A stretch of DNA of 59,402 nucleotides from a virus, in the IMG/VR virus record IMGVR_UViG_3300045988_086105, one strand, 5' to 3'. The position numbers and the translations under genes are program-made. Below are positions 6,276 through 53,362 of the stretch, in pieces (the first letter of the stretch is position 1; each line of letters starts with the position of its first letter). The notes beneath the pieces are model-generated. The model was given only the letters and a program-made list of their open reading frames with translations. It was not told the DNA's origin and made no database searches.

Positions 6276-7067
6276 ATGATTGAAAAAGAATTGGTTAAAA
6301 GAATTTCGACAAAACTCATCGTTGATAAAGAAAATTTTATGCGAAGTTTTCGTTGGAATTTGGGAAAATTTATCGAAACACCGGAAATTACAATCAAACA
6401 GCTTTCTGAAGAATCTGGAATTCCATACGCAACTCTTAATTCTGTCTTGTACGGAAATTCTAGCGATGTCAAATTATCCACAGCAATCTCTTTGTCAAAA
6501 GCATTGGGAATCAGCATTGACGAACTTGTCGGTGCCGGAACCATGGAAGATAAAATGATGGAATCGGTAAAAATATGCCGGGCACTTCCAGAACATTCCT
6601 TATATCTTGTTCGTTATTTGATTCGCCATCAGGGGAAAATATATTCTGAATTAGGTTATAAGCAGAAATACATTTCTGTTATCAAGCCACAGCTTATCAA
6701 CGGTATAATTGCTACTACCAATGCTGTAGAGCCTATGTGCGTGGATAATCTGCCAGAAGATGTCAAATCGAAGGCTTACATTGGGATTCAAATCCCATGC
6801 GATTACTACATGCCTTTTTATTTGCCTGGAGAAATTCTTTTGCTTGCCGCTGACCGGGAGGAGCAAGGCGGGGAGCGTTGTGTGGTTACCAGTAATGGAG
6901 GAATCTATATTGTTGTAAAAATCCATGTGTTTGAAAATGGAAAAATTGTCTGGAAGTACGTTCCTCTAATGTCTCCAGAAAGTATTCTTCCAGACGGAAT
7001 TATTGATGAAAAAATTGGATATGTGGTAGGTTTTTTAGATGTTAATGGTGTCTGGGGAATACGATAA
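6276..7067 (+). CDS. CI/LexA-like repressor: XRE HTH plus an S24-like C-terminal domain with a substituted catalytic Ser
   Basis: HTH: IKQLSEESGIPYATLNSVLYGNSSDVKLSTAISLSKALGISIDELVG. The C-terminus follows the S24 pattern (GEILLLAADRE..GGERCVVTSNGGIYIVVKI), but CDYYMP stands where GDSMxP is expected. Confidence 0.75.
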   Translation: MIEKELVKRISTKLIVDKENFMRSFRWNLGKFIETPEITIKQLSEESGIPYATLNSVLYGNSSDVKLSTAISLSKALGISIDELVGAGTMEDKMMESVKICRALPEHSLYLVRYLIRHQGKIYSELGYKQKYISVIKPQLINGIIATTNAVEPMCVDNLPEDVKSKAYIGIQIPCDYYMPFYLPGEILLLAADREEQGGERCVVTSNGGIYIVVKIHVFENGKIVWKYVPLMSPESILPDGIIDEKIGYVVGFLDVNGVWGIR

Positions 7068-25723: not shown

Positions 25724-27505
25724 TTAATACCTCCTGCTAAGAGAAAACGGGTTGGTAATTGCCTCTGCCTTTGCCATCGTTCCTGCTCTCATTTCATTTT
25801 CAAACAATGCTATGCTATCTGGCGCATCATCGTGCTTTACTTTTCCACTCCGTGTCATTGTGGTCAATTCTTTCATAAATTTGTAATACTGGCTTTGCCT
25901 GTCCATTTTTTTGAAATCACGAAAATAATAATCACGGATTATGTTATCCCTTGCATTTTCCATTCTCGTAATTTTGTTAGAACAGTTAAATTTGAACCTT
26001 GCACTGCATCTGCCTCCCTGGGACTTTACAATCTCCATAACATCTCTTCCAAAATATTCTCCAGCACTGTTGCTTTCAAACGTAACCGTTTTAACATTGT
26101 GTTTTACAATCATATTTGCACATTCCGGTTTTGTAAACTGCGTACCCGCATTGTCAAATACCACATCAACTATGTATATTTCATTCCCATATACATATCC
26201 AACCGGCATAGAACAACTATCTTCGCCTTTATCTGCGCTGTCACAAGCCGCCATAATAGCATCCGGTTCTCTATCTACCGGAAGTTCTTCAAAATAATTC
26301 AACTCGGTTTCGGAAAACATTCTTCCTTTTGCCTCGTATGGCTCCTGCTGAAACTCCGCAGCCCATGTCTCGTCAGAAACAAGTTTTCTTTCTTTCCGGT
26401 AATAATCTGTAGTAAAAATTTTTCTAAGACCTTTTTTATCTTTACGAAATATTTCCCAGTTGCTTTCATCCGTAATTGGGTCAAGTGCCGGAATCGCAAC
26501 TTCCCTCCATCTCCAGCCTAATTCATCAGCTTTATTCTGTAACGCAGTTATAGGGTCATACAGACTGTATTTTGTTCCTTGTATGATAATAGGCGTACCT
26601 TCTAATCTACGCCCCAAAACATCGTCTGTAACTTTTTCACAAAGAAATTCTAACCTATCTCTGTTTCTTGCCTCCTCATGGTTTTTTACACAGTCATCAA
26701 TGTATACAAGAACATTTGCCTCGGTACATCCTACGATTGCACCATCAATAGGACGGCATGTAAATGTAGGAAAAATATTTTTACTTTTAAGGTCTATAGA
26801 AAGATTTTCTGCGCTTTTGTACCCATCTTTGCTGATTTTAACAGCATCTGGAAATACACTCAAAAACCTCTGATAAATACTTTCCGTCTCGAATCCTTGC
26901 AGGAGCCCTCCGTAAAATCTTTTTACCAGTCCTTCACCTTTTCCGACACCTAAGATGCTTCCATCTGGGTCTCTGCCTCCCATCATCTGTGCCAGTTTTA
27001 GTCCTCCAGTGGTCTTACCAGTACGTTTTGGCTGCGAAACAGAAAGAAAATCAAGTTTTCCATCGTAGATTTCCTGGTATGCTCCGACTACCGGCTTTAG
27101 AACCCCTCTTCTTGGAAAATAAAATCTCTTCCACGGATCCTTTTCATCAATTTCGATGTAATAAAAAAAACTATCAACCAGATATGCCGCTTCATACATC
27201 AAAACATTGTAGAATTGCTCTAAAACCTTATATGATGTGTCATTATCTCCTGCGTATACTTCCAGGTCTGCAACTCTGCCACCAGTTTTATTTTTTACAT
27301 ATTGTGCAATAAAGGATTTTACTTTTGCCGATTGCTTTAATCCATAATCAATATCATTTTCCGACCGGAATGCAACCGCTAAAGCCTGTATGTACGCATC
27401 AATGACCTGTTCATCAATTCCCTTGCGCTGTATGTAATTGTCATAGCTGTTTACTGCCGATATAAGGCTTTGACTTGCCAAAAGAAAAGAGCCCCCTTTC
27501 CTCAA
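25724..27505 (-). CDS. terL: Terminase large subunit
   Basis: Walker A (SQPKRTGKTTG) and a C-terminal nuclease-like region. 593 aa as listed in the track. The start is TTG and uncertain; an AGGGGG RBS favours a TTG about 8 codons downstream. Confidence 0.85.
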   Translation of the reverse strand: MRKGGSFLLASQSLISAVNSYDNYIQRKGIDEQVIDAYIQALAVAFRSENDIDYGLKQSAKVKSFIAQYVKNKTGGRVADLEVYAGDNDTSYKVLEQFYNVLMYEAAYLVDSFFYYIEIDEKDPWKRFYFPRRGVLKPVVGAYQEIYDGKLDFLSVSQPKRTGKTTGGLKLAQMMGGRDPDGSILGVGKGEGLVKRFYGGLLQGFETESIYQRFLSVFPDAVKISKDGYKSAENLSIDLKSKNIFPTFTCRPIDGAIVGCTEANVLVYIDDCVKNHEEARNRDRLEFLCEKVTDDVLGRRLEGTPIIIQGTKYSLYDPITALQNKADELGWRWREVAIPALDPITDESNWEIFRKDKKGLRKIFTTDYYRKERKLVSDETWAAEFQQEPYEAKGRMFSETELNYFEELPVDREPDAIMAACDSADKGEDSCSMPVGYVYGNEIYIVDVVFDNAGTQFTKPECANMIVKHNVKTVTFESNSAGEYFGRDVMEIVKSQGGRCSARFKFNCSNKITRMENARDNIIRDYYFRDFKKMDRQSQYYKFMKELTTMTRSGKVKHDDAPDSIALFENEMRAGTMAKAEAITNPFSLSRRY

Positions 27506-28265: not shown

Positions 28266-28481
28266 CTACACCAACTTTCTGCCGCACATCGGACAAAACT
28301 CAATATTGAAATATCCCATAGCCGCTGTATTTGCAAAAATAACAATGGCGGGTTTATTGTCTCCGAAATTCTTCAAAATCTGTGCTTCTGTCAATTCTGT
28401 TTCATTCGCACATTTATGAATTTTAATGTCTTCTCCGCAGATTGTATTTTCGTCATGCCACTTTTCACAAAATTTACACAT
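28266..28481 (-). CDS. Zinc-ribbon protein (71 aa)
   Basis: MCKFCEKW...EFCPMCGRKL. Confidence 0.5.
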   Translation of the reverse strand: MCKFCEKWHDENTICGEDIKIHKCANETELTEAQILKNFGDNKPAIVIFANTAAMGYFNIEFCPMCGRKLV

Positions 28482-28659
28482 GCTTATTTTTCAACCTTTC
28501 CATTAACCGTTCACATTTATCAAGATTTTCGCAAGTAATGTTGTTTAAGTATTTTTCGTTTTTGTCAGATACTTTTGTTATATTCATTTGTATCAGTTTC
28601 GGTTCAAAATCTTTACAATACTGACAACAATCTTGAAGAATAAGGTGAAATCCATTCAT
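28474..28659 (-). CDS. Hypothetical protein (61 aa; start moved to ATG 28659)
   Basis: GGAGG RBS 8 nt before the internal ATG. The longer track ORF (to 28806) would run through a tRNA-like element. Confidence 0.5.
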   Translation of the reverse strand: MNGFHLILQDCCQYCKDFEPKLIQMNITKVSDKNEKYLNNITCENLDKCERLMERLKNKHV

Positions 28660-28676
28660 GAAAAATTCCTCCGTAA

Positions 28677-28749
28677 CCCATGCAGACGGAATCGAACCGC
28701 CGACACACATCCTATGCGGATGCCGTTCTGCCACTGGAGATATACATGG
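28677..28749 (-). tRNA. tRNA-like element, anticodon probably CAT, with a non-canonical anticodon loop
   Basis: Hand fold gives acceptor CCATGTA/TGCATGG, T-arm GGCGG-TTCGATT-CCGTC and anticodon stem GCATC/GATGT. The loop is CGCATAG (G at position 33), or a 5-nt loop if C32:G38 pair. Confidence 0.45.
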
Positions 28750-28908
28750 GAATCGCACAGTAAAACCTTTTATTGCTTGCGCTTGCAATAACCAAATGTG
28801 CACCACCTACTTGTCACTGACTATCCACAATCTCACAGTCTTGTCTGTTCTCTACTTCATAGGCTTGGTTTTCGCTAAACATATGTGGCTTACGTTTTAG
28901 CTAGGGAA

Positions 28909-28969
28909 TAGTTGCACGGAGAGTCGAACTCCGTCAGGCCAAACCATGCCAATGCATTTCAAATCTGCA
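28909..28969 (-). ncRNA. Orphan tRNA 3'-half-like element (anticodon-like arm, long variable arm, T-arm, 3' acceptor strand)
   Basis: T-arm is CGGAG-TTCGACT-CTCCG followed by TGCAACT-A. No complementary 5' acceptor strand or D-arm lies within tRNA distance. Confidence 0.35.
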
Positions 28970-29081
28970 AATTCTACTTTGCAAAGAGTTTTCTGTTCCC
29001 GATAATACAACTACTATCCATACATCTCCCATCGACCTGAACTATTGCAGTAGTGCCAGACTAAGTGGAGATAAGGATAAA

Positions 29082-29149
29082 CACGCCCGGAAAGTATCGA
29101 ACTTTCGTTAGAGGTTTTGGAGACCTCTTTCTGACCAACAGACAAACGT
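29082..29149 (-). tRNA. tRNA-Trp (CCA), short with a reduced D-arm
   Basis: Acceptor ACGTTTG/CGGGCGT (three G-U pairs), anticodon arm GAGGT-CTCCAAA-ACCTC, T-arm GAAAG-TTCGATA-CTTTC. Confidence 0.55.
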
Positions 29150-29301
29150 ATATAAAGTTTTCACGATTTTTTGAAACTTGAAACGGTCAAACTTTTTCAT
29201 TACTTTCCAAAACAAGAGGATTTGTCGCCACCTCAACAAAGCTACTTTCTAGAATTTTCACTTCTCAATAGCAACCACTGGTCGAATCCTTCATCGACGC
29301 A

Positions 29302-29383
29302 CGCCGTACACAGGATTCGAACCTGCAAGCCTTTTACAGCCAACGATTTTCAAGACCGCTCCCTCGCCACCCGGACATACGGC
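29302..29383 (-). tRNA. tRNA-Ser (TGA), type II
   Basis: Acceptor GCCGTAT/GTACGGC, anticodon loop CTTGAAA, long variable region, T-arm GCAGG-TTCGAAT-CCTGT. Confidence 0.7.
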
Positions 29384-29500
29384 AAATATGACAGTGTAGT
29401 GGAACTGCCATATCTGAAATTGCTTTTGCCACTACTTTGTACAATTTCATGCGGACTTTCTACCGCTTACGGCAAGGGTTCGTACCATGTCGTAAGTTAG

Positions 29501-29586
29501 CGCAGTGTGTAGGGCTCGAACCTACAAGGCGAACAAACGCCCGACCGGATAGCAACCGGCTCCAATTCCAATTATGGGAACACTGC
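29501..29586 (-). tRNA. tRNA-Ser (GCT), type II
   Basis: Acceptor GCAGTGT/ACACTGC, 3-bp D-stem CCA/TGG, anticodon arm GCCGG-TTGCTAT-CCGGT, 17-nt variable arm, T-arm GTAGG-TTCGAGC-CCTAC. Confidence 0.8.
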
Positions 29587-29745
29587 ATAAACGGTGGTTT
29601 TTTACTTGGTTATCACCACCCAAGGATTTTTTAGTCAGCCGCAAGCGGCTCCATCCAGTTCCCTGTGCTAAGTTTAACCGGTATATTGATTAGCACCTGC
29701 ATTTCTCTAATAAATGCCCTCGGAGTGTACTGGCAATATCACCAA

Positions 29746-29825
29746 TGGAAAGTGCCGGAATCGAACCGACCTCACGGATTATTGGTGCACCTCACCGTAA
29801 TTGCAGCCTTGCGATATAGCTTTCC
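29746..29825 (-). ncRNA. tRNA-like element with a 17-nt anticodon loop
   Basis: Acceptor GGAAAG(C)/(A)CTTTCC, D-arm with GG loop, T-arm GTCGG-TTCGATT-CCGGC. The stem TACGG/CCGTG sits at the anticodon-stem position but encloses TGAGGTGCACCAATAAT. Confidence 0.4.
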
Positions 29826-29827
29826 TC

Positions 29828-29859
29828 AAAAAGAGCCGAACCTCTAACGATACGGCTCT
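29828..29859 (-). terminator. Rho-independent terminator after the small membrane ORF
   Basis: AGAGCCG / CGGCTCT stem followed by U5 on the minus strand. Confidence 0.6.
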
Positions 29860-29930
29860 TATACTTTCTTAGCCGAGTTTATATTCTTCAGACCAAGCCA
29901 GTGACTTTTTCAAAGTTTTGTGGGTTCTTT

Positions 29931-30119
29931 TCATCTGCGATTCACTGGCAAGGTCTTTCCGGGGACTTCATGCCTCGTAGGTATAGCCTGATATGCGAAC
30001 CCATGCAAATTCCTGCCATACATTCTATCCAGCAGTCTTCTGGAGTTTATGAAAATTTCAACACCAATCCAGACAACGAGATGAAAAACAATTACACCAT
30101 ATACATTTACAATCATCAA
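29931..30119 (-). CDS. Small membrane protein embedded in the tRNA island (62 aa)
   Basis: GAGGGAG RBS 5 nt before the ATG. N-terminal TM (IVNVYGVIVFHLVVWIGVEIFI), a basic tail and its own terminator. Confidence 0.4.
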   Translation of the reverse strand: MMIVNVYGVIVFHLVVWIGVEIFINSRRLLDRMYGRNLHGFAYQAIPTRHEVPGKTLPVNRR

Positions 30120-30150
30120 AACTCCCTCGCTTTCTGAATTTTCGTTTTCA

Positions 30151-30222
30151 TGGCTTGTGGTGGTATCGATCCACCCTATACAGATTTTCAGTCTGTCGCT
30201 AATCCGTCTCAGCTAACAAGCC
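30151..30222 (-). tRNA. tRNA-Phe (GAA)
   Basis: Acceptor GGCTTGT/ACAAGCC, anticodon arm ACAGA-CTGAAAA-TCTGT, T-arm GGTGG-ATCGATA-CCACC (atypical T-loop). Confidence 0.7.
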
Positions 30223-30534
30223 TTAAAGCTATCCGGCGTATCGCAACCGTATAGAGGTCTCATTTGCGAATTTTCCTCTGCGCTTTCACGGTATTCCCGA
30301 AGAAATTGCACCAGATAGCAAAATAGGATTCCCGCAATACTCGACACCTCAATCATGACACCATGACAGTGTTTGATTTTACGGGGTTGGACATACGAAC
30401 GGCCTTTCCCGGAATTGTCATCGTGTAATGCCCATGTGCGTTTTCACGCTCAACCAGCGAAGTCAAGCGTGACATTTTTTTATATTCGCAGGGCATCCGC
30501 CAGTTTCCTGCTAGTCGGTAGCTATCCAACCTCG
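30223..30534 (-). ncRNA. Structured non-coding spacer (tetraloop-capped hairpins)
   Basis: The minus-strand RNA contains a cUUCGg hairpin (ATTTC-TTCG-GGAAT), a GAAA-capped hairpin (CGT-GAAA-GCG) and a 7-bp stem TCACGCT/AGCGTGA. There is no RBS-led ORF. Confidence 0.35.
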
Positions 30535-30618
30535 TGGGGAAAGAAAGACTCGAACTTTCGATGTTTCCAATGTCACGGTTTTACAGACCGCTGCAATCGC
30601 CGCTATGCACATTTCCCC
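30535..30618 (-). tRNA. tRNA-Tyr (GTA), type II
   Basis: Acceptor GGGGAAA/TTTCCCC, D-stem TGCA/TGCA, anticodon arm GCGGT-CTGTAAA-ACCGT, long variable arm, T-arm GAAAG-TTCGAGT-CTTTC. Confidence 0.85.
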
Positions 30619-30692
30619 AAATTTACCAGTTCTTTTTTACAACGTTTCACTGGCATACCCGTTGATTGTTTTTTAAGTGGTCGCTCCACTAA

Positions 30693-30805
30693 ATGGATAG
30701 GTACGGATTTGAACCGTACATGATTGGTATACCTCCCGCCATCTAAGTTGCTGGCTACAGCGGATTATCTCACAGCAATAGTGTCTGCCATTCCACCACT
30801 ATCCA
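30693..30805 (-). ncRNA. 113-nt tRNA-like element with an expanded central region
   Basis: Perfect 7-bp acceptor TGGATAG/CTATCCA, Ser/Leu-like D-arm GTG-GAATGGCAGA-CAC, T-arm GTACG-GTTCAAATC-CGTAC. Sixty nt lie between the D- and T-arms, including stem TTGCTG/CAGCAA around a 19-nt loop. Confidence 0.4.
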
Positions 30806-31113
30806 CGCCCATCTTATGACTGCAAGGGCTGTGCAGGGTTAATCAATCTCTGTCATTCGACTGCCTGTAGTACCACCTATTAGCTTTGAAGATTAACAGC
30901 TCCTGGTGCCACTCTCTAAAAGCCAGGAGTTAGCATACGCATTTCTGCATTAAGGAAGTATGCTGGTCCCTGCCGCAGTTCTTTGCTCTCCGTCATAGAG
31001 CGGGAATCAACTACAGCAAAACCCAAATCCCCACAAGCCTTATGACGGCTCTTAACAGCATTCCGCTATGGGGAGAAAGGAATCTTTACATGAGTCGTTA
31101 GCAAACCCATGCG
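30806..31113 (-). ncRNA. Structured non-coding spacer with a T-armless tRNA-like three-way junction and a GNRA hairpin
   Basis: CCCCAT...GTGGGG encloses AGC-GGAAT-GCT and GAGCC-GTCATAA-GGCTT (a CAT loop). Other helices are GCATAC/GTATGC with an inner GCA-GAAA-TGC, CTCCTGG/CCAGGAG and GTTAATC/GATTAAC. Confidence 0.35.
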
Positions 31114-31184
31114 CTGGGCTAACCAGATTCGAACTGGTGATACAGGAGTCAAAGTCCTGTGCCTTACCGCTTGGCGATAGCCCA
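31114..31184 (-). tRNA. tRNA-Gln (TTG)
   Basis: Canonical cloverleaf: TGGGCTA/TAGCCCA, D-arm GCC-AAGCGGTAA-GGC, anticodon arm CAGGA-CTTTGAC-TCCTG, T-arm ACCAG-TTCGAAT-CTGGT. Confidence 0.9.
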
Positions 31185-31456
31185 TTATTCCCGGCAGTAA
31201 AGACCATCTGACTGCCGGGTCCCGTGATACATTTCGATTCGTCTGTACAAATTACTCACAGCATCTGGGGGTTGGACAAAAAATACCGCTTTCATCCGCA
31301 CAGACCTATCCGTGACATCATGCCTTGTCTTGTCAGCTACATATCGTCTAGTAACTGACGATGGTCTAATTTTTATGAATTTAAACCGGTCTGCAAAATT
31401 GATTATGTTTTCAATTAAGCAAATCGGAATAATTCCGCAGAGTATATTCAAAATCT

Positions 31457-31594
31457 TCATACCCACATAAAAAACACAGCCATAATAATTGCAAACCCAA
31501 AAATCAATTCTGTGAATTTTCCTTCTCTTTCTTTTGTTTTGGAGCAGTCAATAAGCACTACAAATCCCGCCAGTGTAACTAGGAAACTTACCAT
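31457..31594 (-). CDS. Small two-TM protein (45 aa)
   Basis: Hand-translated: MVSFLVTLAGFVVLIDCSKTKEREGKFTELIFGFAIIMAVFFMWV. No clear RBS. Confidence 0.3.
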   Translation of the reverse strand: MVSFLVTLAGFVVLIDCSKTKEREGKFTELIFGFAIIMAVFFMWV

Positions 31595-31598
31595 CAGT

Positions 31599-32015
31599 TT
31601 AATTGCAAATATCACTTCTATTCTTCCTCCCATTCATCCTGCTTTCAACCTCTGCCAGAACCGCTTGAACCAGAAATCTTGAAAATTGAGAATCGTCCAT
31701 TTTTAAAAATAATTTACACTGCCGATTCAGTTGTTCCCAGTCGGCATCCGTCCTTGGTTCAAAATTCTCTTTATGAATTCTCCAGATTGCGGTATAGGTT
31801 TCTTTTACTTCACTTGTCATTGGCTCCTTTACCTCTTTCTTTTCCTCAGAAGAATTCTCTTCCCTTTTCTCTGCATGGTTCATTTGGCAAGAAAAAAGCT
31901 GCAATATGTTTGACCTTGGCTGCTTAATTCCATGTCCCTGCCGGAACAGTTCACATTCCAAAATGTCCCCACAGTATTTACATTCATCATTTATCTCTTT
32001 GCCAAAGATTTGCAT
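31599..32015 (-). CDS. Hypothetical protein (138 aa)
   Basis: Track ORF, packed behind the DUF3310 gene. Confidence 0.5.
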   Translation of the reverse strand: MQIFGKEINDECKYCGDILECELFRQGHGIKQPRSNILQLFSCQMNHAEKREENSSEEKKEVKEPMTSEVKETYTAIWRIHKENFEPRTDADWEQLNRQCKLFLKMDDSQFSRFLVQAVLAEVESRMNGRKNRSDICN

Positions 32016-32019
32016 GGCT

Positions 32020-32499
32020 CTAATCCTTCTTGCAGGCTTTTTCCAACTCCAGATACTTTGTCAAATACCAATGCGCCTTTGAAATATCCTCGGAACCATT
32101 TTTATTATTATGCCGGTAAAGATACTTAAAGGCATTGCAGATGCAAAAATCTTTTACCGCATCAACCCCCTGCGTTTCAAGCATCACATCTATGCACTCA
32201 TATTTTCCAGTCTCATAATGGCTGGGATGATTAACATTATCCTCCACATGGATTTCAATCTTTCCAGGTTGCATATCCTTAGGCATAATTCTTTCATTCA
32301 CCTGCTCTACACTTCCTGTCTTAAAATTTACTTTCGAGAAAAGAGGTACCCACATTCCCAGAGGTAAATCCTTCTTAGCAACAAAATATAAATAATCTCC
32401 TTCCAGTTTTGAATAGCTGATTTGATAACCAAGGTTATTAAGTGCTTTCTCTGTATTCTCCACTGCTTTATTTATTTCCCTTGCTGTTCCTATATCCAT
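32020..32499 (-). CDS. DUF3310-domain protein
   Basis: PSHYETGKYECIDVM...CNAFKYLYRHNNKNGSEDISKAHWYL matches the DUF3310 signature. Confidence 0.6.
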   Translation of the reverse strand: MDIGTAREINKAVENTEKALNNLGYQISYSKLEGDYLYFVAKKDLPLGMWVPLFSKVNFKTGSVEQVNERIMPKDMQPGKIEIHVEDNVNHPSHYETGKYECIDVMLETQGVDAVKDFCICNAFKYLYRHNNKNGSEDISKAHWYLTKYLELEKACKKD

Positions 32500-34879: not shown

Positions 34880-35134
34880 ATGATTATAGGAACTTTAATG
34901 AATGGGAAAAAATGCGTATATGATTTACCAAGCGAGATTAAGACAGCGGAGCATATGCAAAGCCTTATATATGGCTACAACAACGGCAGACTTGCAGAAA
35001 GCCAACGCCCGGAGCTTTACAACCAGCCTAAATTATTAAGCCTTAACGGTCCAATGTGGAACGGATACGGAACTCTCAAGAGTACAGGCGAGACGGTCGC
35101 AATTATACGCTATGAAAAACCGTGTAAATTTTAG
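34880..35134 (+). CDS. Hypothetical protein (84 aa)
   Basis: ATG 34880 with a GTGAGGA RBS. Followed by a GC-rich hairpin. Confidence 0.55.
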   Translation: MIIGTLMNGKKCVYDLPSEIKTAEHMQSLIYGYNNGRLAESQRPELYNQPKLLSLNGPMWNGYGTLKSTGETVAIIRYEKPCKF

Positions 35135-35213
35135 CCGAAACGCTCCGCCCTGGGGCGTCAGCCGCGGAATAGCCGCCCGGCTCCGATGATGGCAGGCTGG
35201 AAAGGGAAAAGAT

Positions 35214-44118: not shown

Positions 44119-45249
44119 TTAAATTACCTTTAACGATTCTGCAACCATGTCCATTTCTTTCTGTTTTTGTTCATCTTTCGTATCGACATAAAGGTTCATG
44201 GTAATACCTATATTTGAATGACCTAAAATTGTTTGCAGTGTTTTTGGCATCATACCCGCCTCTATACATCTTGTTGCAAAGGTGTGCCGCAAAACGTGCA
44301 TAGCAAATTGATGTATTCCTGCCTTTTTGCACACTTTAAAAAGCATAGTGTCGTAAGTGCTATTTTTTACTGGCGTACCTTTTTTGCAAAGAAAAACTGT
44401 GTCGTTCCATTCCATAGAAATACATGGAAACGATTGATTCTTCTTCTTTTGCAATTTTAGAATTTTTATTGCCTCATCAGTTAATGGAATTGTTCTATAC
44501 CCAGATTTACTTTTTGGTTCTCCAGTTCTCCATTCTTTAGTGGAATGTCTATATTCTGTTGTCCTAGAAATTGCCATGACCTTTTTGTTAAAATCAATAT
44601 CTTTCCATTGTAGTCCTACCATTTCCCCTGTTCGCAAACCGGTCTGTAATATAAAAAGATATTGATATTCATAGGGACATCCTATTATTTCATTACAAAA
44701 TTTTTTTTGTTCTTCAATGCTAAGTGCCACTTTTTTTTCCGATGGTAAACCTATATCAGATTTAACCAACTTATTACACGGATTTTTTAGTATTATGTCA
44801 TTTTGGTACGCATAATCAAGCATATTATAAAGTGCAATCCTTGCTTGATAAATTGTAGTTGTTTTGTACCCCTCATCAGCCATATTATTCATAATCTGCT
44901 GGCAGTGTATTGTGTTAACATCTTTTAATAATTTGTTTCCAATAACGGGAGCAATGTTTCTGTTATACCTTTCACTATAGTTTCTTAAAGTATTTGGTCT
45001 TACTACTCTTGATTTTATCGAAATCCAATAATTATACCATGCCTGCACAAGCATATCTTTTGGAAAATCAATATTGCTATGAGAATCATAATATTGACTA
45101 TCCGCAAGCCATTTTTGGCATTCTTTTAACTTTTTAAATAATTTCTGAATACGTTTGCCATTTTTTGAAGTGTATCTTCCAACATAATAGCCATCTTTTC
45201 TTTGGCTTATTCCTTGTCCAAGTTCCTTTCCTTTTAAGTCTTTTCCCAA
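44119..45249 (-). CDS. int: Tyrosine integrase (intact)
   Basis: Arg box LRTGEMVGLQWKDIDF, HVLRHTFATR, GHSNIGITMNLYVD (H-x-x-R...H...Y). Confidence 0.9.
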   Translation of the reverse strand: MGKDLKGKELGQGISQRKDGYYVGRYTSKNGKRIQKLFKKLKECQKWLADSQYYDSHSNIDFPKDMLVQAWYNYWISIKSRVVRPNTLRNYSERYNRNIAPVIGNKLLKDVNTIHCQQIMNNMADEGYKTTTIYQARIALYNMLDYAYQNDIILKNPCNKLVKSDIGLPSEKKVALSIEEQKKFCNEIIGCPYEYQYLFILQTGLRTGEMVGLQWKDIDFNKKVMAISRTTEYRHSTKEWRTGEPKSKSGYRTIPLTDEAIKILKLQKKKNQSFPCISMEWNDTVFLCKKGTPVKNSTYDTMLFKVCKKAGIHQFAMHVLRHTFATRCIEAGMMPKTLQTILGHSNIGITMNLYVDTKDEQKQKEMDMVAESLKVI

Positions 45250-50559: not shown

Positions 50560-51946
50560 CTACGCAAACCGGAGTTGACCGGTCTGCTCCTGTGCTATTT
50601 TCATGTTTCCGGTGCGCTCTGCCACACACAATTCCGGGAGATTGGCTCTTACCAATGCAGCCGGAATCGGAGGGCACACTGCATTGCCGCATCTCCGCAC
50701 CTGTTCACTCCGTGGATAGGTTTTACCGGTATAATCATGCTCGATTATGTAATCATCCGGGAATCCCTGGCATCCGTACAACTCCCTTGGCTCCAGCATC
50801 CGAAGACCAATATCCACGATCTGATAATCTGTTCCGTTGATGGTTACCAGTCCGAATCTGTCCTGCGCCGTCACGGTGTCCAACGGTGCCTTTATATCCT
50901 GTCCAGTTCCCTGTCCATAATATTTGATTAAAAAAGCTCTCACCTCTCCGAAATGACCGTCTCCTGCTGTAATTGTCGGAATTGGCTCTTTTACATCCCT
51001 TCCATCACAATGATTATTCATCTGAATAAGGTTTACTGCACACATAGCGTTTCTTTCAAGCGTCGTAATGGTGTGCAATGGTTCTTTAATGTAAGATCCG
51101 TTTCCTTGATAATTCCCGCCATAGTATTTCTGAATGATAAAAGGCTCTGGATTATCCAAAACGAATTTTTTCAATCCTCTGGCTATTCTGTCCATTGTCT
51201 TTTGTGCCAGTGGGCGGCGTGCCCGTATGCCGTATTTTTCTTTGACTTCTTCCGAAGTATCAAAGATACTTGGACAGGGCAAGGAAAAATCCAACTGCGT
51301 ATATGCTCCAATATAAGGTTTTTTCAATCCCGCCTTTACCTCTTCACTGTCTGCCGGTGCGTGTGTCGGCTCTGGCCAGACAATCGGTTTGCCGTCGCAT
51401 CTTGCAATCAGGAAAAATCTTTTTCTCATGGTTGGAGCGCCGTAATCAGCAGCAACCAACTCTTTTGTCTGGACTGTATATCCCAATTTCCATAATTGTC
51501 CTATAAACTTCCGATATGTCTGCCCTTTTTTCTTCTTAATTGGATGGTGTCGCCGATTCAGCGGACCCCATTGCTGAAATTCTTCCACGTTTTCCAACAT
51601 AATCACCCTCGGTCTTACAAGTCCCGCCCATCGGCATGCTACCCATGCAAGGCCGCGTATGAACTTGTCTTTTGGCTTACCGCCTTTGGCTTTGCTGAAA
51701 TGTTTGCAGTCCGGTGAGAACCAGGCAAGTCCTACTGGATGCCCATTGCAAGCTTTCACCGGATCTACCTGCCATACATCCTCACAGTAATGTTTCGTAT
51801 TGGGGTGGTTTGCCTTATGCATCTTAATTGCTTCCGGGTCATGGTTGATGGCTATATCTACACTATATCCTGTTGCCATCTCGATTCCGGTTGACGCACC
51901 ACCCCCGCCTGGCAAAGTTGTCTACGATTAATTCACCGTTAATCAT
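50560..51946 (-). pseudogene. dcm: DNA (cytosine-5) methyltransferase with a 1-nt frameshift after codon 12
   Basis: ATG 51946 (GAGGTGG RBS) encodes MINGELIVDNFA. Skipping one base (about 51911) restores DNFAGGGGAS (motif I) in frame with the 451-aa ORF carrying SPDCKHFS and IMLENV. Confidence 0.75.
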
Positions 51947-52481
51947 TTACTGCCACCTCACTTTCGTCTATATAATTCCAAATATATCCACCGCATGTAT
52001 TTCTTTTTCCTTTTAATGCGTTACACAAGTTACTCCTGCTGATATGGCAAATTTCAGAAGCTTTCGCAAGTGAAGAAAATTTCACAACACTCCCGTCTGA
52101 CGATACTCCCATAACAGCTCTTTTCTTTCTTCCTGCGTAGTCAACATGATTGGTAAGTCCATTTCTAATAGCATGTTGCATATTTTCATAATTCGTTATC
52201 CATTCAAGATTCCAGACAGTATTATTTTCTTTATTTGTATCTTTGTGATTTACCTGTGGAAGATTGTCTGGATTTTCAATAAATGCAATGGCAACTGCCC
52301 TGTGTACTTTTATAGTTGCTTGGATATTGTTTTTGCTTAAAGAAACCCTTAAATATCCTTTTCCGTCCTTATGCGGTTTCATAACCTTTTTAGTATCTTT
52401 GTTTCTGATAATCCCGGTATTACTTACCTCATATCTGTCTCCGTATACATATGTGTCCCTCCATTCAACCTCTGCATTCAT
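51939..52481 (-). CDS. HNH homing endonuclease (NUMOD4/HNH_3-like)
   Basis: EWRDTYVYGDRYEVSNTGIIRN...HRAVAIAFIENPDNLPQVNHKDTNKENN. Confidence 0.8.
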   Translation of the reverse strand: MNAEVEWRDTYVYGDRYEVSNTGIIRNKDTKKVMKPHKDGKGYLRVSLSKNNIQATIKVHRAVAIAFIENPDNLPQVNHKDTNKENNTVWNLEWITNYENMQHAIRNGLTNHVDYAGRKKRAVMGVSSDGSVVKFSSLAKASEICHISRSNLCNALKGKRNTCGGYIWNYIDESEVAVND

Positions 52482-53362
52482 GGCATCACCTCCGGAAAGT
52501 CCTCAAAATCCATCTGATTGATATTTTCAAACACCAGCATTTCTTCCTTTGCTCTTTGGTAAAAATTTCGGTCAATCTCAAATCCAAACGCATTTCTTCC
52601 CAGTTCTATGGCCGCTCTTAATGTGCTGCCACTTCCACAGCACGGATCAATTACCACATCCCCGGGATCTGTAAAAATCTCAATCATCCTTTTCAACACT
52701 ACCACAGGTTTCTGTGCCGGATGAATCTTTGGAATGTCCTTTCCGTCCTTTTCCCAGGTAAACCAGTTAAAAATCATTTTCCCAGTCCCTCGTATTGTCT
52801 TTCCATCTTCATCAATCCTTGCCCCGTTTCGGAACTTCGGAAGTCTGTCGCGGTAGAAAACAAGCGCATATTCCGTTGCTCCTACAATTCGCATATTAGC
52901 TTTCAACACCTGTGGGCTGTAGTTTTTAACAAATACCAGAGGTATATAGTGAATAAACCCATGCTTTTTCCCTGCCTCAATAAGCGTGGACATCTGTTCA
53001 AATGAACAAAACACAATCATGCAGGGGCTGTTACTACTCCTTCCTCTAGCAACGCTTTTCTTGTCATCTTTTTTAAGCATCTTGGAACAAAAGTGGAAGT
53101 ATTCGTACAGATTAAAATTGAAATCTGAATTGAATGCCGCTTTCCCTGCAAGCTTGCTCTCGCCGTTCTTATTATCCCCGCCGTTGTACCACATGGGGTT
53201 GCTTCCATAAAAGTTCTTTCCTACGTTATACGGCACATCTGCAATTACAAGCTGTGCCTTGGGGATTCCATACTTTTTGTAGTTCTGCATGGAATCCCGA
53301 TATATTTCACACTTTACTTTCATTTTTCTAAAAGGAACCCGATATATCGTTACCATGCGCAT
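52478..53362 (-). CDS. N6-adenine/N4-cytosine DNA methyltransferase
   Basis: DVPY (DPPY-type motif IV) in VIADVPYNVG, and motif I VIDPCCGSGSTLRAAIELGRNAFGFEID. Confidence 0.85.
   Translation of the reverse strand: MRMVTIYRVPFRKMKVKCEIYRDSMQNYKKYGIPKAQLVIADVPYNVGKNFYGSNPMWYNGGDNKNGESKLAGKAAFNSDFNFNLYEYFHFCSKMLKKDDKKSVARGRSSNSPCMIVFCSFEQMSTLIEAGKKHGFIHYIPLVFVKNYSPQVLKANMRIVGATEYALVFYRDRLPKFRNGARIDEDGKTIRGTGKMIFNWFTWEKDGKDIPKIHPAQKPVVVLKRMIEIFTDPGDVVIDPCCGSGSTLRAAIELGRNAFGFEIDRNFYQRAKEEMLVFENINQMDFEDFPEVMP

What the first reader, a model, noticed from the sequence alone, without database searches (positions are those of the whole stretch)
28660..31456. 2.8-kb non-coding island: tRNA array interleaved with heavily structured RNA, splitting TerS from TerL
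Between the TerS-side genes and the genes leading into TerL there is almost no credible coding sequence on either strand.

Hand folding on the minus strand gives six cloverleaf tRNAs: Gln-TTG, Tyr-GTA, Phe-GAA, Ser-GCT, Ser-TGA and Trp-CCA.

The roughly 1.7 kb between them is not random spacer. It contains:
- cUUCGg, GAAA and cUUGg tetraloop hairpins.
- 6-9-bp helices.
- An H-type pseudoknot candidate (CTTGG/CCAAG interleaved with GGTGG/CCACC, 29590-29630).
- tRNA-like three-way junctions.

Large ornate RNAs of the ROOL and GOLLD classes are known to sit in Firmicutes prophages next to tRNA genes. This island is the kind of place they occur, but I cannot match their consensus from memory. Alternatively this is a new phage RNA. 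The island also carries one RBS-led small membrane ORF with its own terminator (29931-30119).
Basis: partly seen in the sequence, partly recalled or inferred. Interest (0 to 1): 0.8.

Follow-up and report, generated by a model that had tools for sequence, protein, structure and literature searches.

The report
Phage tRNA island with structured RNAs
A 2.8-kb stretch of a temperate gut phage, probably of Lachnospiraceae, carries six tRNA genes interleaved with conserved, folded non-coding RNA modules; some are tRNA-shaped and some have self-complementary loops suited to RNA-to-RNA pairing, and part of the stretch occupies the slot where a sister phage carries the giant ROOL RNA.

Summary
ARAGORN finds the same six minus-strand tRNAs. 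The spacers are neither short nor random, and the only supported protein gene is the 62-aa membrane ORF.

Rfam finds no ROOL, GOLLD, tmRNA or group I intron in the window. A sister phage (L064, TerL 89% identical) carries a true ROOL (371.6 bits). It fills the tRNA-Phe to tRNA-Ser(GCU) slot, which here holds orf62, a tRNA-like RNA and a pseudoknotted module.

About 300 related contigs show that the array is built from shuffled cassettes. At least six spacer modules keep their helices through compensatory changes: M1, tRNA-like a, I, S4, S5 and d.

Three loop sequences change between phages yet stay perfect palindromes. A fourth, in tRNA-like b, is a palindrome with no variant. This signature was used to infer symmetric kissing loops in OLE and GOLLD.

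My best reading is a tRNA/ncRNA cassette array. RNase P and RNase Z would cut it into tRNAs and stable RNAs, some of them self-associating and undescribed in Rfam 15. The structure is shown. Processing, dimerisation and function are inferred.

The parts
31185..31456 (-). Leader upstream of tRNA-Gln. It contains an orphan 91-aa ORF (31185-31460) and a 9-bp hairpin at about 31190-31222. Coding status is unresolved.
   Evidence: The ORF has no homologue other than itself. MFE z = -4.43, with 0 of 200 shuffles folding as well. Only 31185-31218 is shared with relatives.
31113..31184 (-). tRNA-Gln(UUG)
   Evidence: ARAGORN. Rfam tRNA, 64.3 bits. Present in most relatives.
31029..31081 (-). Module M1. 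A CUCCUUU tract is followed by a small three-way junction: P1 6 bp, hairpin AGC-GGAAU-GCU, hairpin GAGCC-GUCAUAA-GGCUU.
   Evidence: Alignment A2: 14 pairs, 5 with compensatory changes, none broken in P1. One copy per contig in more than 120 IMG/VR contigs. Also present in Dulem virus 39, whose TerL is only 33% identical. G-U pairs favour the minus strand.
30813..31024 (-). Spacer without comparative support. It holds a partial paralogue (30930-30953) of the 5' part of module I.
   Evidence: No homologues among the loci held. MFE z = -0.51. Repeat D4.
30693..30806 (-). tRNA-like RNA 'a'. It has an 8-bp acceptor, a D arm and a T arm. A 6-bp stem with a 19-nt loop replaces the anticodon arm. There is an internal 4-bp pseudoknot. 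An 8-nt palindrome, GGUAUACC (30726-30733), lies in the variable region.
   Evidence: Alignment A4: 29 pairs, 99% paired, 14 compensatory, 0 of 500 shuffles reach the observed value, slid controls 29-53% paired. The palindrome has four perfect variants in 66 of 67 occurrences. No Rfam tRNA hit at E<=10.
30534..30617 (-). tRNA-Tyr(GUA)
   Evidence: ARAGORN. Rfam, 50 bits.
30477..30531 (-). Module E: two hairpins directly 3' of tRNA-Tyr. Relatives that lack tRNA-Tyr also carry it.
   Evidence: Compensatory changes in both stems (GUUGG/CCAAC to GUCGG/CCGAC; GCAGG/CCUGC to GUAGG/CCUAC) in my own MAFFT/RNAalifold run. Found in 78 loci. No Rfam hit.
30223..30476 (-). Spacer with predicted hairpins, including a cUUCGg hairpin around 30297-30302. 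It is shared only with near-identical contigs.
   Evidence: MFE z = -2.36, with 2 of 200 shuffles folding as well. Homologues only in L202-L206 at 94-96% identity, so covariation cannot be tested.
30151..30222 (-). tRNA-Phe(GAA)
   Evidence: ARAGORN. Rfam, 54.3 bits.
29931..30119 (-). orf62, a small membrane protein gene: one N-terminal hydrophobic helix and a conserved GFAYQAIPTRHEV-like stretch. It has a GAGGGAG ribosome-binding site. A terminator-like hairpin with a T5 run follows at 29828-29858.
   Evidence: 20 homologues, 19 at 50-66% identity and one at 97%, most 57-70 aa long, with 13 invariant residues. Same context in L202-L206.
29746..29825 (-). tRNA-like RNA 'b'. It has an acceptor stem and a T arm. 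A 4-bp stem with a 17-nt loop, UGA-GGUGCACC-AAUAAU, sits where the anticodon loop should be. The palindrome is at 29784-29791.
   Evidence: Rfam tRNA-Sec, 20.4 bits only. ARAGORN finds it only at a lowered threshold. In relatives an ordinary tRNA occupies this position before module I. The GGTGCACC palindrome is identical in the window and five near-identical loci, so it has no variant.
29590..29745 (-). Module I: a three-way junction (helix 29728-29732 with 29654-29658 enclosing two hairpins), a cUUGg hairpin, and a 3' H-type pseudoknot (29593-29624) with an A-rich third loop. The module ends about 3 nt before tRNA-Ser. A loop palindrome, ACCGGU, lies at 29677-29682.
   Evidence: Alignment A3: 33 pairs, 98% paired, 12 compensatory, 0 of 500 shuffles reach the observed value, slid controls 34-45% paired. 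Two of the four pseudoknot pairs are compensatory. Palindrome variants ACCGGT, TCCGGA and TCTAGA.
29500..29586 (-). tRNA-Ser(GCU), class II
   Evidence: ARAGORN. No Rfam hit in the window, but homologues in relatives score 47-52 bits.
29385..29499 (-). Module S4: four hairpins plus a 7-bp loop-loop helix, GUAGUGG (29429-29435) with CCACUAC (29396-29402). One hairpin, GCGG-UAGAAAGU-CCGC, resembles the P4/L4 part of twister.
   Evidence: Alignment A6: 32 pairs, 96.9% paired, 12 compensatory, 0 of 500 shuffles reach the observed value. Five of the seven loop-loop pairs are compensatory. Twister-P3 scores only 18.2 bits against a gathering score of 39.9.
29301..29384 (-). tRNA-Ser(UGA), class II
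   Evidence: ARAGORN. Rfam tRNA-Sec model, 37 bits.
29151..29300 (-). Module S5. The 5' half has three helices. A 17-nt loop carries the palindrome UUCUAGAA (29247-29254). The 3' part of the module (about 70 nt) is nearly invariant.
   Evidence: Alignment A7: 35 predicted pairs, 3 compensatory and many G-U switches. Palindrome variants TTCTAGAA, TACTAGTA and TCCTAGGA in 59 of 60 occurrences.
29081..29150 (-). tRNA-Trp(CCA), atypical
   Evidence: ARAGORN. Rfam, 29.1 bits, at the threshold.
28907..29077 (-). Module d: a 5' long hairpin (29017-29077) followed by a tRNA-like domain (28907-29015). The domain has an acceptor and a T arm, and an elaborate roughly 60-nt arm in place of the anticodon arm.
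   Evidence: Alignment A5: 51 predicted pairs, 14 compensatory. Present in 92 of 206 loci. ARAGORN finds it only with the intron option and a lowered threshold.
28751..28906 (-). Module f: conserved hairpins between module d and the Met-like tRNA. It starts near the third TGGATAGT copy (28826).
   Evidence: 99 loci, 49 distinct sequences. A compensatory AUUGC/GCAAU to AUGGC/GCCAU change. I did not count pairs formally.
28676..28750 (-). Borderline tRNA-Met(CAU)-like gene with an odd anticodon loop, CGCAUAG (purine at position 33). It ends about 20 nt before the next ORF.
   Evidence: ARAGORN finds it in the window only at a lowered threshold, but at default settings in many relatives. Relatives vary at position 33 and in the 'anticodon' (CAU to AAU).

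Best explanation
The island is this phage family's hypervariable tRNA/non-coding-RNA cassette array. It sits at the head of the late (packaging and structural) gene block of a temperate phage, probably of Lachnospiraceae.

Shown:
- It encodes six tRNAs and one borderline Met-like tRNA. The six lack an encoded CCA.
- It encodes one small membrane protein.
- Between the tRNAs lies a series of independently shuffled RNA modules on the same strand (M1, a, E, b, I, S4, S5, d, f). For M1, a, I, S4, S5 and d, formal pair counts show helices kept by compensatory substitutions. E and f show compensatory changes in less formal alignments. b has no informative variation.
- Three modules (a, b, d) are tRNA-shaped, with an acceptor stem and a T arm, but the decoding arm is replaced by something else.
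- Module I ends in a pseudoknot with an A-rich third loop that abuts the next tRNA.
- Three loops (in a, I and S5) are perfect palindromes that change between phages yet stay palindromic. The loop in b is a palindrome without a variant.
- S4 has two mutually complementary loops.

Inferred mechanism:
- The array is transcribed as a long precursor.
- Host RNase P and RNase Z cut at every tRNA and tRNA-like handle. This releases the tRNAs and also the intervening modules as discrete RNAs of about 60-190 nt.
- The ends of those RNAs are protected by tRNA-like folds or by the 3' pseudoknot.
- The RNAs with palindromic loops then pair with a second copy of themselves, forming symmetric kissing-loop homodimers or larger assemblies.

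The modules occupy the same exchangeable slots that hold ROOL, RAGATH-27 or int-alpA RNAs in sister phages. I therefore read them as smaller, undescribed members of the same functional guild of RNAs linked to phage tRNA islands. Their molecular role during late infection is still unknown. It may concern tRNAs or the translation machinery.
For: - tRNAs.
- Same-strand modules with compensatory changes and controls: M1; I (98% paired, 12 compensatory pairs, 0 of 500 shuffles, slid controls 34-45%); a (99%, 14 compensatory, 0 of 500); S4 (96.9%, 12 compensatory, 0 of 500); d (14 compensatory of 51); S5.
- Frequent conserved G-U pairs fix the strand.
- Mosaic cassette organisation in relatives.
- M1 is conserved in Dulem virus 39 although its TerL is 33% identical, and it occurs in more than 120 IMG/VR contigs.
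- Covarying palindromes: a has GGTATACC, GTCGCGAC, AGTGCACT and AGCATGCT (66 of 67 occurrences perfect). S5 has TTCTAGAA, TACTAGTA and TCCTAGGA (59 of 60). I has ACCGGT, TCCGGA and TCTAGA. b has GGTGCACC at the equivalent site.
- The same argument was used for the symmetric kissing loops OLE L9.3 and GOLLD L21a (PMC12286853).
- ROOL fills the Phe to Ser(GCU) slot in L064. RAGATH-27 and int-alpA occur in other arrays.
- G+C is raised in the island.
- Module ends coincide with tRNA ends.
- Late-operon position and temperate lifestyle.
- Lachnospiraceae MAG hits.
Against: - There are no expression or processing data. Transcript boundaries, RNase P/Z cleavage and RNA stability are all inferred.
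- Dimerisation is inferred from sequence alone.
- The relatives are close (TerL at least 89% identical for the first 80 loci). Many 'independent' changes may therefore be few events, and the shuffle control does not correct for phylogeny.
- About 30% of the island has no comparative support (31185-31456, 30813-31024, 30619-30692, 30223-30476). One of these stretches folds no better than shuffles.
- The palindrome in b has no variant.
- The 3' part of S5 is nearly invariant, so it could instead be a promoter or a protein-binding site.
- No function can be derived, and the function of ROOL itself is unknown.
Confidence: 0.55

Rival explanations
1. The modules are only cis-acting leaders and trailers of the pre-tRNA transcript. 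They would act as structured spacers that position RNase P, RNase Z or RNase E, block exonucleases or insulate neighbouring tRNAs from misfolding. After processing they would have no life of their own.
For: Every module is bounded by tRNA ends. The pseudoknot of module I abuts the RNase P site of tRNA-Ser. Module E sits directly 3' of tRNA-Tyr. No tRNA here encodes CCA, so endonucleolytic 3' processing is needed.
Against: Simple spacers do not need 115-190 nt of multi-helix structure. They also do not need internal pseudoknots, loop-loop helices or palindromic loops that covary. In sister arrays tRNAs sit about 75-80 nt apart start to start, with essentially no spacer (L043 and L044). The same slots hold ROOL in L064. 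M1 and E occur next to different tRNAs in different phages.
Confidence: 0.2
2. The spacers are decaying tRNA pseudogenes and recombination scars. They would look conserved only because the phages diverged recently, and would have no function.
For: Several elements clearly derive from tRNAs (a, b, d, Met-like). TGGATAGT occurs three times and marks a deletion joint in L030 and L008. The array is highly mosaic. The relatives are close.
Against: Substitutions are concentrated in compensatory pairs, while unpaired junction sequence is conserved. M1 is nearly identical in a phage whose TerL is only 33% identical. Palindromes are maintained through changes at up to 6 of 8 positions between variants. 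Decay would break acceptor and T-arm pairing, yet these helices are 97-100% paired.
Confidence: 0.07
3. One or more spacers are self-cleaving ribozymes that cut the poly-tRNA precursor, as theta (HDV-like) ribozymes and hammerheads do in other gut phages. S4 would be a divergent twister.
For: S4 contains AGCGGUAGAAAGUCCGCAUGAAA, which aligns to the P4/L4 core of type-P3 twister (18.2 bits; E = 0.16 when only 126 nt are searched). S4 has tertiary loop-loop pairing. The phage has a bona fide Hammerhead_II elsewhere. tRNA-adjacent ribozymes are known in gut phages (PMC10879173).
Against: The twister score is far below the gathering score of 39.9. The 28-nt part of the model that would hold P1, P2 and the cleavage site is absent, and the model's P3-like pairing conflicts with the covariation-supported hairpin. 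No HDV, hammerhead, pistol, hatchet or twister-sister hit appears in the island at E<=10. By eye, the 7 nt after each tRNA 3' end have no HDV-type P1 partner downstream.
Confidence: 0.1
4. The island, or its 564-nt Phe to Ser slot, is a highly divergent ROOL or GOLLD that the Rfam models miss.
For: It occupies the same slot as a true ROOL in L064, and the slot lengths are nearly equal, 564 and 558 nt. ROOL and GOLLD lie near tRNA islands in phages (PMC12286853).
Against: There is no ROOL or GOLLD hit even at E<=10 on 3.5 kb. BLASTN of the L064 ROOL finds nothing in the window. The slot here contains a protein gene with 20 homologues and a tRNA-derived element. Module I occurs in many relatives as a separate 155-nt unit.
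Confidence: 0.03
5. The conserved palindromes and the invariant blocks are DNA-level signals rather than RNA features. They would be operators for dimeric proteins, promoters, or methylation or restriction sites.
For: All variants are 6-8-bp DNA palindromes. The phage encodes two DNA methyltransferases and several regulators. The 3' part of S5 is nearly invariant and A/T-rich.
Against: The palindromes sit in loops of hairpins that are themselves supported by compensatory changes with G-U pairs on one strand. A protein site would be expected to keep its sequence, not swap both half-sites symmetrically among close relatives. The sigma-70 scan shows no enrichment (8 found against 7.7 expected).
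Confidence: 0.05

Closest known systems
ROOL and GOLLD RNAs (Rfam RF03087, RF01183)
   Same: They are phage and prophage non-coding RNAs that lie in or next to tRNA islands, with many helices and pseudoknots. A true ROOL sits in the homologous Phe to Ser(GCU) slot of sister phage L064. They assemble through intermolecular kissing loops (PMC12286853).
   Different: The window has no sequence or structure match. The modules here are 55-190 nt, not 550-800 nt, and each recombines on its own. Several are tRNA-derived. Nothing here shows cage formation.
Symmetric kissing loops of OLE (L9.3) and GOLLD (L21a)
   Same: A loop palindrome switches between different palindromes across homologues, which is the same logic of evidence. 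Adjacent nucleotides of one chain cannot pair with each other, so the pairing must be between two chains (PMC12286853).
   Different: In those RNAs the contacts were seen by cryo-EM. Here they rest on sequence only. The palindromes here are longer (6-8 nt) and sit on small tRNA-like or three-way-junction scaffolds.
Phage T4 RNAC and RNAD (stable 'species 1 and 2' RNAs)
   Same: They are phage small RNAs of unknown function (PMC9697503). From my own knowledge, they are encoded in the T4 tRNA gene cluster and matured together with the tRNAs.
   Different: I found no sequence relation and ran no formal comparison. The host and phage types differ. No dimerisation signal is known for the T4 RNAs.
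tRNA-like processing handles (plant mitochondrial t-elements; MALAT1 mascRNA)
   Same: These are tRNA-shaped elements without a decoding function. RNase P and RNase Z recognise them, and they define the ends of neighbouring RNAs (t-elements: PMC1920247, abstract seen; mascRNA from my own knowledge).
   Different: Those are eukaryotic or organellar. Here the tRNA-like RNAs carry extra conserved domains and palindromic loops, which suggests a role beyond punctuation.
Theta (minimal HDV-like) ribozymes and hammerheads next to phage tRNAs
   Same: They are structured RNAs directly flanking tRNAs in gut Caudoviricetes, and they are linked to CCA-less tRNAs (PMC10879173). This phage has a Hammerhead_II elsewhere.
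   Different: There is no HDV-like or hammerhead fold in the island. No suppressor tRNA is present in the window.
phi29 pRNA
   Same: S4 has two complementary 7-nt loops with 5 compensatory pairs. The island lies just upstream of the packaging genes.
   Different: There is no sequence or secondary-structure similarity, and this phage uses a classical large terminase. The S4 loops may simply kiss within one molecule.

Membership tests
ROOL RNA (RF03087) | A match to the Rfam covariance model at or above the gathering score (99.1 bits) | tested here: not met
   No hit in the window at the gathering score or at E<=10 on 28300-31800. As a positive control, L064 scores 371.6 bits. BLASTN of that ROOL against the window finds nothing.
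GOLLD RNA (RF01183) | A match to the Rfam covariance model | tested here: not met
   No hit at the gathering score or at E<=10.
ROOL/GOLLD-type context | Location in a phage or prophage tRNA island | tested here: met
   Six tRNAs. Integrase, anti-repressors and structural genes in the window. ROOL in the homologous slot of L064.
tmRNA | A tRNA-like domain plus a tag reading frame, detectable by ARAGORN or Rfam | tested here: not met
   ARAGORN reports no tmRNA. There is no Rfam tmRNA hit.
Group I intron | A match to the Rfam Intron_gpI model, or a tRNA interrupted by an intron of more than 200 nt | tested here: not met
   No Rfam hit. The inserts in the tRNA-like elements are only about 10-65 nt.
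Twister ribozyme (type P3, RF03154) | A complete core (P1, P2, P4 and the cleavage site) scoring at least 39.9 bits | tested here: not met
   The score is 18.2 bits. Only the P4/L4-like segment aligns, and the 28-nt insert region of the model is empty. The covariation-supported hairpins disagree with the model's pairing.
Theta / HDV-like ribozyme | A nested double pseudoknot that starts within +/-5 nt of a tRNA 3' end and has a catalytic C in J4/2 | tested here: not met
   No HDV-clan Rfam hit at E<=10. I inspected the sequence after each tRNA by eye and found no 7-nt P1 partner. I did not run the authors' own descriptor.
Canonical decoding tRNA (applied to elements a, b, d) | A cloverleaf with a 5-bp anticodon stem and a 7-nt loop carrying U33 | tested here: not met
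   Acceptor, D and T arms are present and covary. The anticodon position, however, holds a 19-nt loop (a), a 17-nt loop (b) or a branched arm of about 60 nt (d). The Rfam tRNA model gives no hit for a or d and 20 bits (tRNA-Sec) for b.
RNAs with a symmetric kissing loop (as in OLE L9.3 and GOLLD L21a) | A loop palindrome that covaries yet stays a palindrome | tested here: met
   a has 4 variants, S5 has 3 and I has 3. b has a single variant.
RNAs with a symmetric kissing loop (as in OLE L9.3 and GOLLD L21a) | Physical homo-oligomer formation | not testable with these tools
   This needs native gels, SEC-MALS or cryo-EM of transcripts.
int-alpA RNA (RF02996), for module E | A match to the Rfam covariance model | tested here: not met
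   A stretch of about 20 nt resembles the L059 int-alpA sequence by eye. There is no Rfam hit on 30440-30560 at E<=10.

The most novel reading that the evidence does not exclude
The spacers encode a previously undescribed set of small phage RNAs that assemble RNA-to-RNA. Some are tRNA-derived scaffolds whose anticodon or variable region has been replaced by a self-complementary kissing loop (a, b). They would be excised from the poly-tRNA precursor by the host tRNA-processing enzymes. They would form homodimers or larger assemblies that do the same, still unknown, job as ROOL, with which they are genetically interchangeable. That would make them compact, tractable models for the function of the ornate phage RNAs.
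Probability: 0.35. Interest if true: 0.8.

Novelty: new variant of a known kind. Interest (0 to 1): 0.68.

Why it matters
ROOL and GOLLD are among the most striking RNAs of unknown function. They sit in phage tRNA islands and build RNA-only cages, and nobody knows why.

This phage family swaps a ROOL in one member for a small protein gene plus two small structured RNAs in another, at exactly the same slot. Around that slot lie further small RNAs that carry the sequence signature of RNA-RNA self-association.

If those RNAs are real, stable and dimeric, three things follow:
- They enlarge the class of naturally self-assembling RNAs to 80-190-nt molecules that are easy to study.
- They show tRNAs being re-used as scaffolds and processing handles in a bacterial virus.
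- They give a natural genetic swap experiment for asking what ROOL-type RNAs do during late infection.

The result also warns annotators. In these arrays the line between 'tRNA' and 'tRNA-like' is blurred. Only three of the six ARAGORN tRNAs pass Rfam's gathering score in the whole-window scan, and gene callers place spurious ORFs on the modules.

Tried and rejected
- ROOL, GOLLD, tmRNA, group I intron, RNase P, HDV-like, hammerhead, pistol and hatchet in the island: no Rfam hit at the gathering score or at E<=10.
- Twister for S4: only a partial 18-bit match, so I rejected membership.
- int-alpA for module E: there is a resemblance by eye, but no covariance-model hit.
- Theta ribozymes: I read the paper. 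No HDV-type P1 follows any tRNA end. The authors' descriptor was not available to run.
- M1 as a plus-strand riboswitch in front of an ORF. The reverse complement of CUCCUUU is a Shine-Dalgarno sequence. However, the ORFs that would follow are 1-3 codons or run into the antisense of tRNA-Gln, and G-U pairs fix the RNA to the minus strand.
- M1 as a T-armless tRNA. Its 'anticodon' loop varies (CAU, CAC, CGC) and loses U33 in some copies.
- Resemblance of GAAAGUCCGC in S4 to RNase P CR-I: judged to be coincidence. The segment lies in a local hairpin and there is no RNase P hit.
- Coding potential of the other ORFs in the island:
  - orf91 has only itself as a homologue.
  - orf47, orf36 and orf58a have no tblastn match in the loci.
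  - The 'conservation' of orf43 and orf58b is just nucleotide conservation of S5 and E.
- Sigma-70 promoters and terminators: not enriched.
- Inter-module loop complementarity, checked by eye (M1 loop GUCAU against AUGAC at about 30990; E loop 1 against E loop 2): it does not covary in relatives, so I dropped it.
- A loose regular expression for the module I loop proved non-specific. For module I, I rely on the alignment-based scan.

Full report
**1. The observation**

ARAGORN on the whole window finds six tRNA genes.
- Gln-UUG 31113-31184
- Tyr-GUA 30534-30617
- Phe-GAA 30151-30222
- Ser-GCU 29500-29586
- Ser-UGA 29301-29384
- Trp-CCA 29081-29150

Rfam is stricter. In the whole-window scan only Gln, Phe and Tyr pass the tRNA gathering score. 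In the island scan, Trp sits on the threshold at 29.1 bits and Ser-UGA scores 37 bits against the tRNA-Sec model. Ser-GCU is not reported at E<=10, although its homologues in relatives score 47-52 bits. None of the six encodes CCA.

The tRNAs cover about 470 of 2797 nt, so the spacers are long. G+C is 0.42-0.49 inside the island and 0.32-0.41 in the flanks.

**2. Surroundings**

- TerL is 25724-27505 on the minus strand (tblastn matches to annotated phage large terminases; sub-threshold Pfam terminase hit).
- Five small ORFs separate the island from TerL.
- On the other side lie a 58-aa ORF, a 138-aa ORF and a DUF3310 'nucleotide kinase' (32020-32499).
- Beyond them is a 258-aa protein with only a weak TerS match (phrog_606, E = 0.006). 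'TerS' is therefore plausible but not established.

The window is a temperate tailed phage. Portal, major head protein and endolysin lie downstream of TerL on the same strand. It also has an integrase, several Ant-type anti-repressors, RecT and two DNA methyltransferases. The island thus heads the late gene block.

Exact-pattern hits of module M1 in genome assemblies fall mostly in Lachnospiraceae MAGs.

**3. Known RNA families in the window**

Rfam 15 gives no ROOL, GOLLD, tmRNA, group I intron, RNase P or small-ribozyme match in the island. This holds at the gathering score and at E<=10 on 28300-31800. Two weak hits remain:
- a tRNA-Sec-like match at 29747-29825 (20 bits);
- a twister-P3 match at 29428-29473 (18.2 bits against a gathering score of 39.9).

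**4. Coding content**

- The 62-aa ORF at 29931-30119 is real. It has 20 homologues, 19 of them at 50-66% identity and one at 97%. They share an N-terminal hydrophobic helix and 13 invariant residues, most of them in a GFAYQAIPTRHEV-like stretch.
- The 91-aa ORF at 31185-31460 matches only itself among 5.8 billion clusters. Its sequence folds much better than shuffles (z = -4.4). I leave its status open.
- The other ORFs in the island have no protein-level support or overlap tRNAs in antisense.

**5. Relatives and cassette structure**

A TerL search of IMG/VR returned 391 relatives, and the best 80 (89-95% identity) were kept. Dulem virus 39 is a distant relative with TerL 33% identical.

Almost all of these relatives have a tRNA array 1-6 kb upstream of TerL, but its content differs from phage to phage. 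Arg-UCU, Ile-UAU, Glu-UUC, Met-CAU, Asn and Leu occur in various arrays, and some siblings carry suppressor-type tRNAs.

BLASTN shows that the window's island is a mosaic of blocks shared with different subsets of relatives. Short conserved blocks recur next to different tRNAs. An 8-nt string, TGGATAGT, occurs three times (30806, 29020, 28826) and marks a deletion joint in L030 and L008.

**6. ROOL in a sister phage**

An Rfam scan of seven relatives found three known families inside their arrays:
- L064 carries a full ROOL RNA (371.6 bits) at 6435-6992.
- Dulem virus 39 carries RAGATH-27.
- L059 carries int-alpA, which BLASTN also finds in about 19 further loci.

The flanks of the L064 ROOL are homologous to the window's tRNA-Phe (30161-30217) and tRNA-Ser(GCU) (29499-29587), and module d follows downstream. 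In the window the same slot (30150-29587, 564 nt) holds orf62, tRNA-like b and module I.

**7. The spacers are structured RNAs on the minus strand**

I aligned the non-identical homologues of each module and counted base pairs.

| Module | Coordinates | Pairs counted | Paired cells | Compensatory pairs | Shuffles reaching observed | Slid controls |
|---|---|---|---|---|---|---|
| M1 | 31029-31081 | 14 | not computed | 5 | not computed | not computed |
| I | 29590-29745 | 33 | 98% | 12 | 0 of 500 | 34-45% |
| a | 30693-30806 | 29 | 99% | 14 | 0 of 500 | 29-53% |
| S4 | 29385-29499 | 32 | 96.9% | 12 | 0 of 500 | 29-46% |
| d | 28907-29077 | 51 (predicted) | not computed | 14 | not computed | not computed |
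| S5 | 29151-29300 | 35 (predicted) | not computed | 3 | not computed | not computed |

Further points on individual modules:
- M1 has no broken pair in its outer stem.
- M1 occurs once per contig in more than 120 IMG/VR contigs and is almost unchanged in Dulem virus 39.
Two of the four pairs of its second stem are compensatory.
- Element a is a cloverleaf with an internal 4-bp pseudoknot.
- S4 has a 7-bp loop-loop helix in which 5 pairs are compensatory.
- Module d is a 5' hairpin followed by a tRNA-like domain.
- S5 has many G-U switches, and its 3' part (about 70 nt) is nearly invariant.
- Modules E and f show compensatory changes in my own alignments. I did not count them formally.

Many conserved G-U pairs would be A-C mismatches on the other strand. 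This fixes the RNA to the tRNA strand.

Caveat: the relatives are close, and the shuffle control ignores phylogeny. The counts therefore overstate the number of independent events. The slid-partner controls are the fairer comparison, and they are clearly lower.

**8. tRNA-like elements**

Elements a, b and d keep an acceptor stem and a T arm (GGUUCRAWUCC-type). These helices covary like those of real tRNAs. The decoding arm is replaced:
- in a, by a 6-bp stem with a 19-nt loop, plus a variable region that carries a palindrome;
- in b, by a 17-nt loop, UGA-GGUGCACC-AAUAAU;
- in d, by a branched arm of about 60 nt.

Element b sits where relatives have an ordinary tRNA in front of module I. It shares the 3' anticodon-stem and variable-loop sequence of that tRNA.

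The last element (28676-28750) is a Met(CAU)-like tRNA with loop CGCAUAG. ARAGORN accepts its homologues in relatives, but position 33 and the anticodon vary there.

**9. Covarying palindromes**

An alignment-based scan asked for windows that are perfect palindromes in at least 90% of sequences and have at least two variants. It found three sites. Two further IMG/VR pattern scans, with the palindrome positions left free, gave these counts.

| Site | Coordinates | Variants (occurrences) | Non-palindromic exceptions |
|---|---|---|---|
| a | 30726-30733 | GTCGCGAC (59), AGTGCACT (3), AGCATGCT (3), GGTATACC (1) | one one-mismatch singleton |
| S5 loop | 29247-29254 | TTCTAGAA (28), TACTAGTA (25), TCCTAGGA (6) | one singleton |
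| Module I loop | 29677-29682 | ACCGGT, TCCGGA, TCTAGA | not counted |

Element b carries GGTGCACC at the equivalent site, GA-[8-mer]-AAU. It has no variant.

A hairpin cannot explain full 8-nt self-complementarity, because the central bases cannot pair within one strand. Kretsch et al. used the same reasoning to support the symmetric kissing loops OLE L9.3 and GOLLD L21a (PMC12286853). The palindromes of the four sites differ from one another, so each RNA would pair with its own kind.

**10. Mechanism**

Shown: the anatomy, the strand, the conservation, the covariation, the palindromes and the slot equivalence with ROOL.

Inferred:
- (i) The array is transcribed as a precursor together with, or just ahead of, the late genes.
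- (ii) RNase P and RNase Z cut at each tRNA and each tRNA-like handle. The modules are thereby released as discrete RNAs.
  - Module I would begin at the 3' end of b.
  - Module I would end in an A-rich pseudoknot about 3 nt before the RNase P site of tRNA-Ser. Such a fold would shield a 3' end from exonucleases.
- (iii) The RNAs with palindromic loops form homodimers or larger assemblies.
- (iv) They act in the same, still unknown, process as ROOL and GOLLD.

I give about 0.9 to 'conserved structured RNAs in a cassette array', about 0.6 each to (ii) and (iii), and about 0.3 to (iv).

**11. Rivals**

- Pure processing spacers remain possible for E, f and M1. They fit poorly with loop-loop helices and covarying palindromes, and with sister arrays in which tRNAs are packed with essentially no spacer.
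- Neutral decay of tRNA genes is contradicted by the compensatory patterns and by M1's conservation across distant phages.
- A ribozyme role is open only for S4, and weakly so.
- A divergent ROOL is excluded as far as sequence and structure models can tell.
- DNA-level explanations for the palindromes are unlikely, because they sit in loops of covarying RNA hairpins and swap both half-sites.

**12. What is not explained**

- About 30% of the island has no informative homologues (31185-31456, 30813-31024, 30619-30692, 30223-30476).
  - 30813-31024 folds no better than shuffles.
  - 30223-30476 folds moderately better (z = -2.4).
- The role of the CUCCUUU tract in front of M1 is unknown.
- The near-invariant 3' part of S5 is unexplained.
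- Whether the S4 loops pair within one molecule or between molecules is open.
- The function of orf62 is unknown.

**13. Novelty**

The kind is known: structured RNAs in phage tRNA islands, some of them self-assembling. The members are not. None matches any of the 4227 Rfam 15 families. Literature searches turned up no description of tRNA-shaped phage RNAs with covarying palindromic loops. I therefore class the finding as a new variant of a known kind.

Noticed in passing
window 35133-35201 (+): A type II hammerhead ribozyme (RF02276, 48.5 bits, above the gathering score) lies outside the island, on the strand opposite the late genes. The same family occurs at a comparable position in relatives: L064:1904-1972, L043:1515-1583, L009:2068-2135 and L081:602-666.
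   Followed up: partly
L064:6435-6992: A full-length ROOL RNA (371.6 bits) lies between tRNA-Phe and tRNA-Ser(GCU) of a sister phage. It is the only ROOL that BLASTN found among the 206 loci then held.
   Followed up: yes
L081:4772-4855 and L059:5766-5833: RAGATH-27 (77.2 bits, just above the gathering score) lies in the array of Dulem virus 39. An int-alpA RNA (46.5 bits) lies next to a tRNA in L059, and BLASTN finds homologues in about 19 other loci. Neither is present in the window.
   Followed up: partly
L009, L027, L036-L038, L055, L059 (arrays upstream of TerL): ARAGORN calls suppressor-type tRNAs in sibling arrays: anticodon UUA in six loci and CUA in L009. This hints at stop-codon recoding in some members of this phage family. 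The window has none.
   Followed up: no
window 30799-30806, 29013-29020, 28819-28826 (-): The string TGGATAGT starts tRNA-like a and tRNA-like d and also occurs inside module f. In L030 and L008 a deletion joins two of these copies, so the string behaves as a recombination joint between cassettes.
   Followed up: partly
window about 29151-29220 (-): The 3' part of module S5, just upstream of tRNA-Trp (about 70 nt), is nearly invariant in 23 distinct sequences and is A/T-rich. It could be a promoter or a protein-binding site rather than RNA structure.
   Followed up: no
window 29396-29402 and 29429-29435 (-): Two loops of adjacent hairpins in S4 are complementary over 7 nt, and 5 of the pairs are compensatory.
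   Followed up: partly
L081:7199-8404 (Dulem virus 39): An annotated RtcB tRNA-splicing ligase gene lies directly upstream of TerL, just after the tRNA array. PHROGs scans of 20 of the larger window ORFs (150-672 aa; the 1251-aa ORF was not scanned) found no RNA ligase, RtcB or CCA-adding enzyme.
   Followed up: partly
window 29931-30119 (-): orf62 belongs to an unannotated small-protein family (most members 57-70 aa). The family has one transmembrane helix and a conserved GFAYQAIPTRHEV-like stretch, and at least some members lie in phage tRNA arrays.
   Followed up: partly
window 44119-45249, 50560-51915, 52478-53362, 53381-54115 (-): Integrase, two DNA methyltransferases and a PAPS-reductase-like gene are present, and at least four Ant-type anti-repressor genes lie elsewhere in the window. 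The window is close to a complete temperate phage genome of about 59 kb.
   Followed up: no
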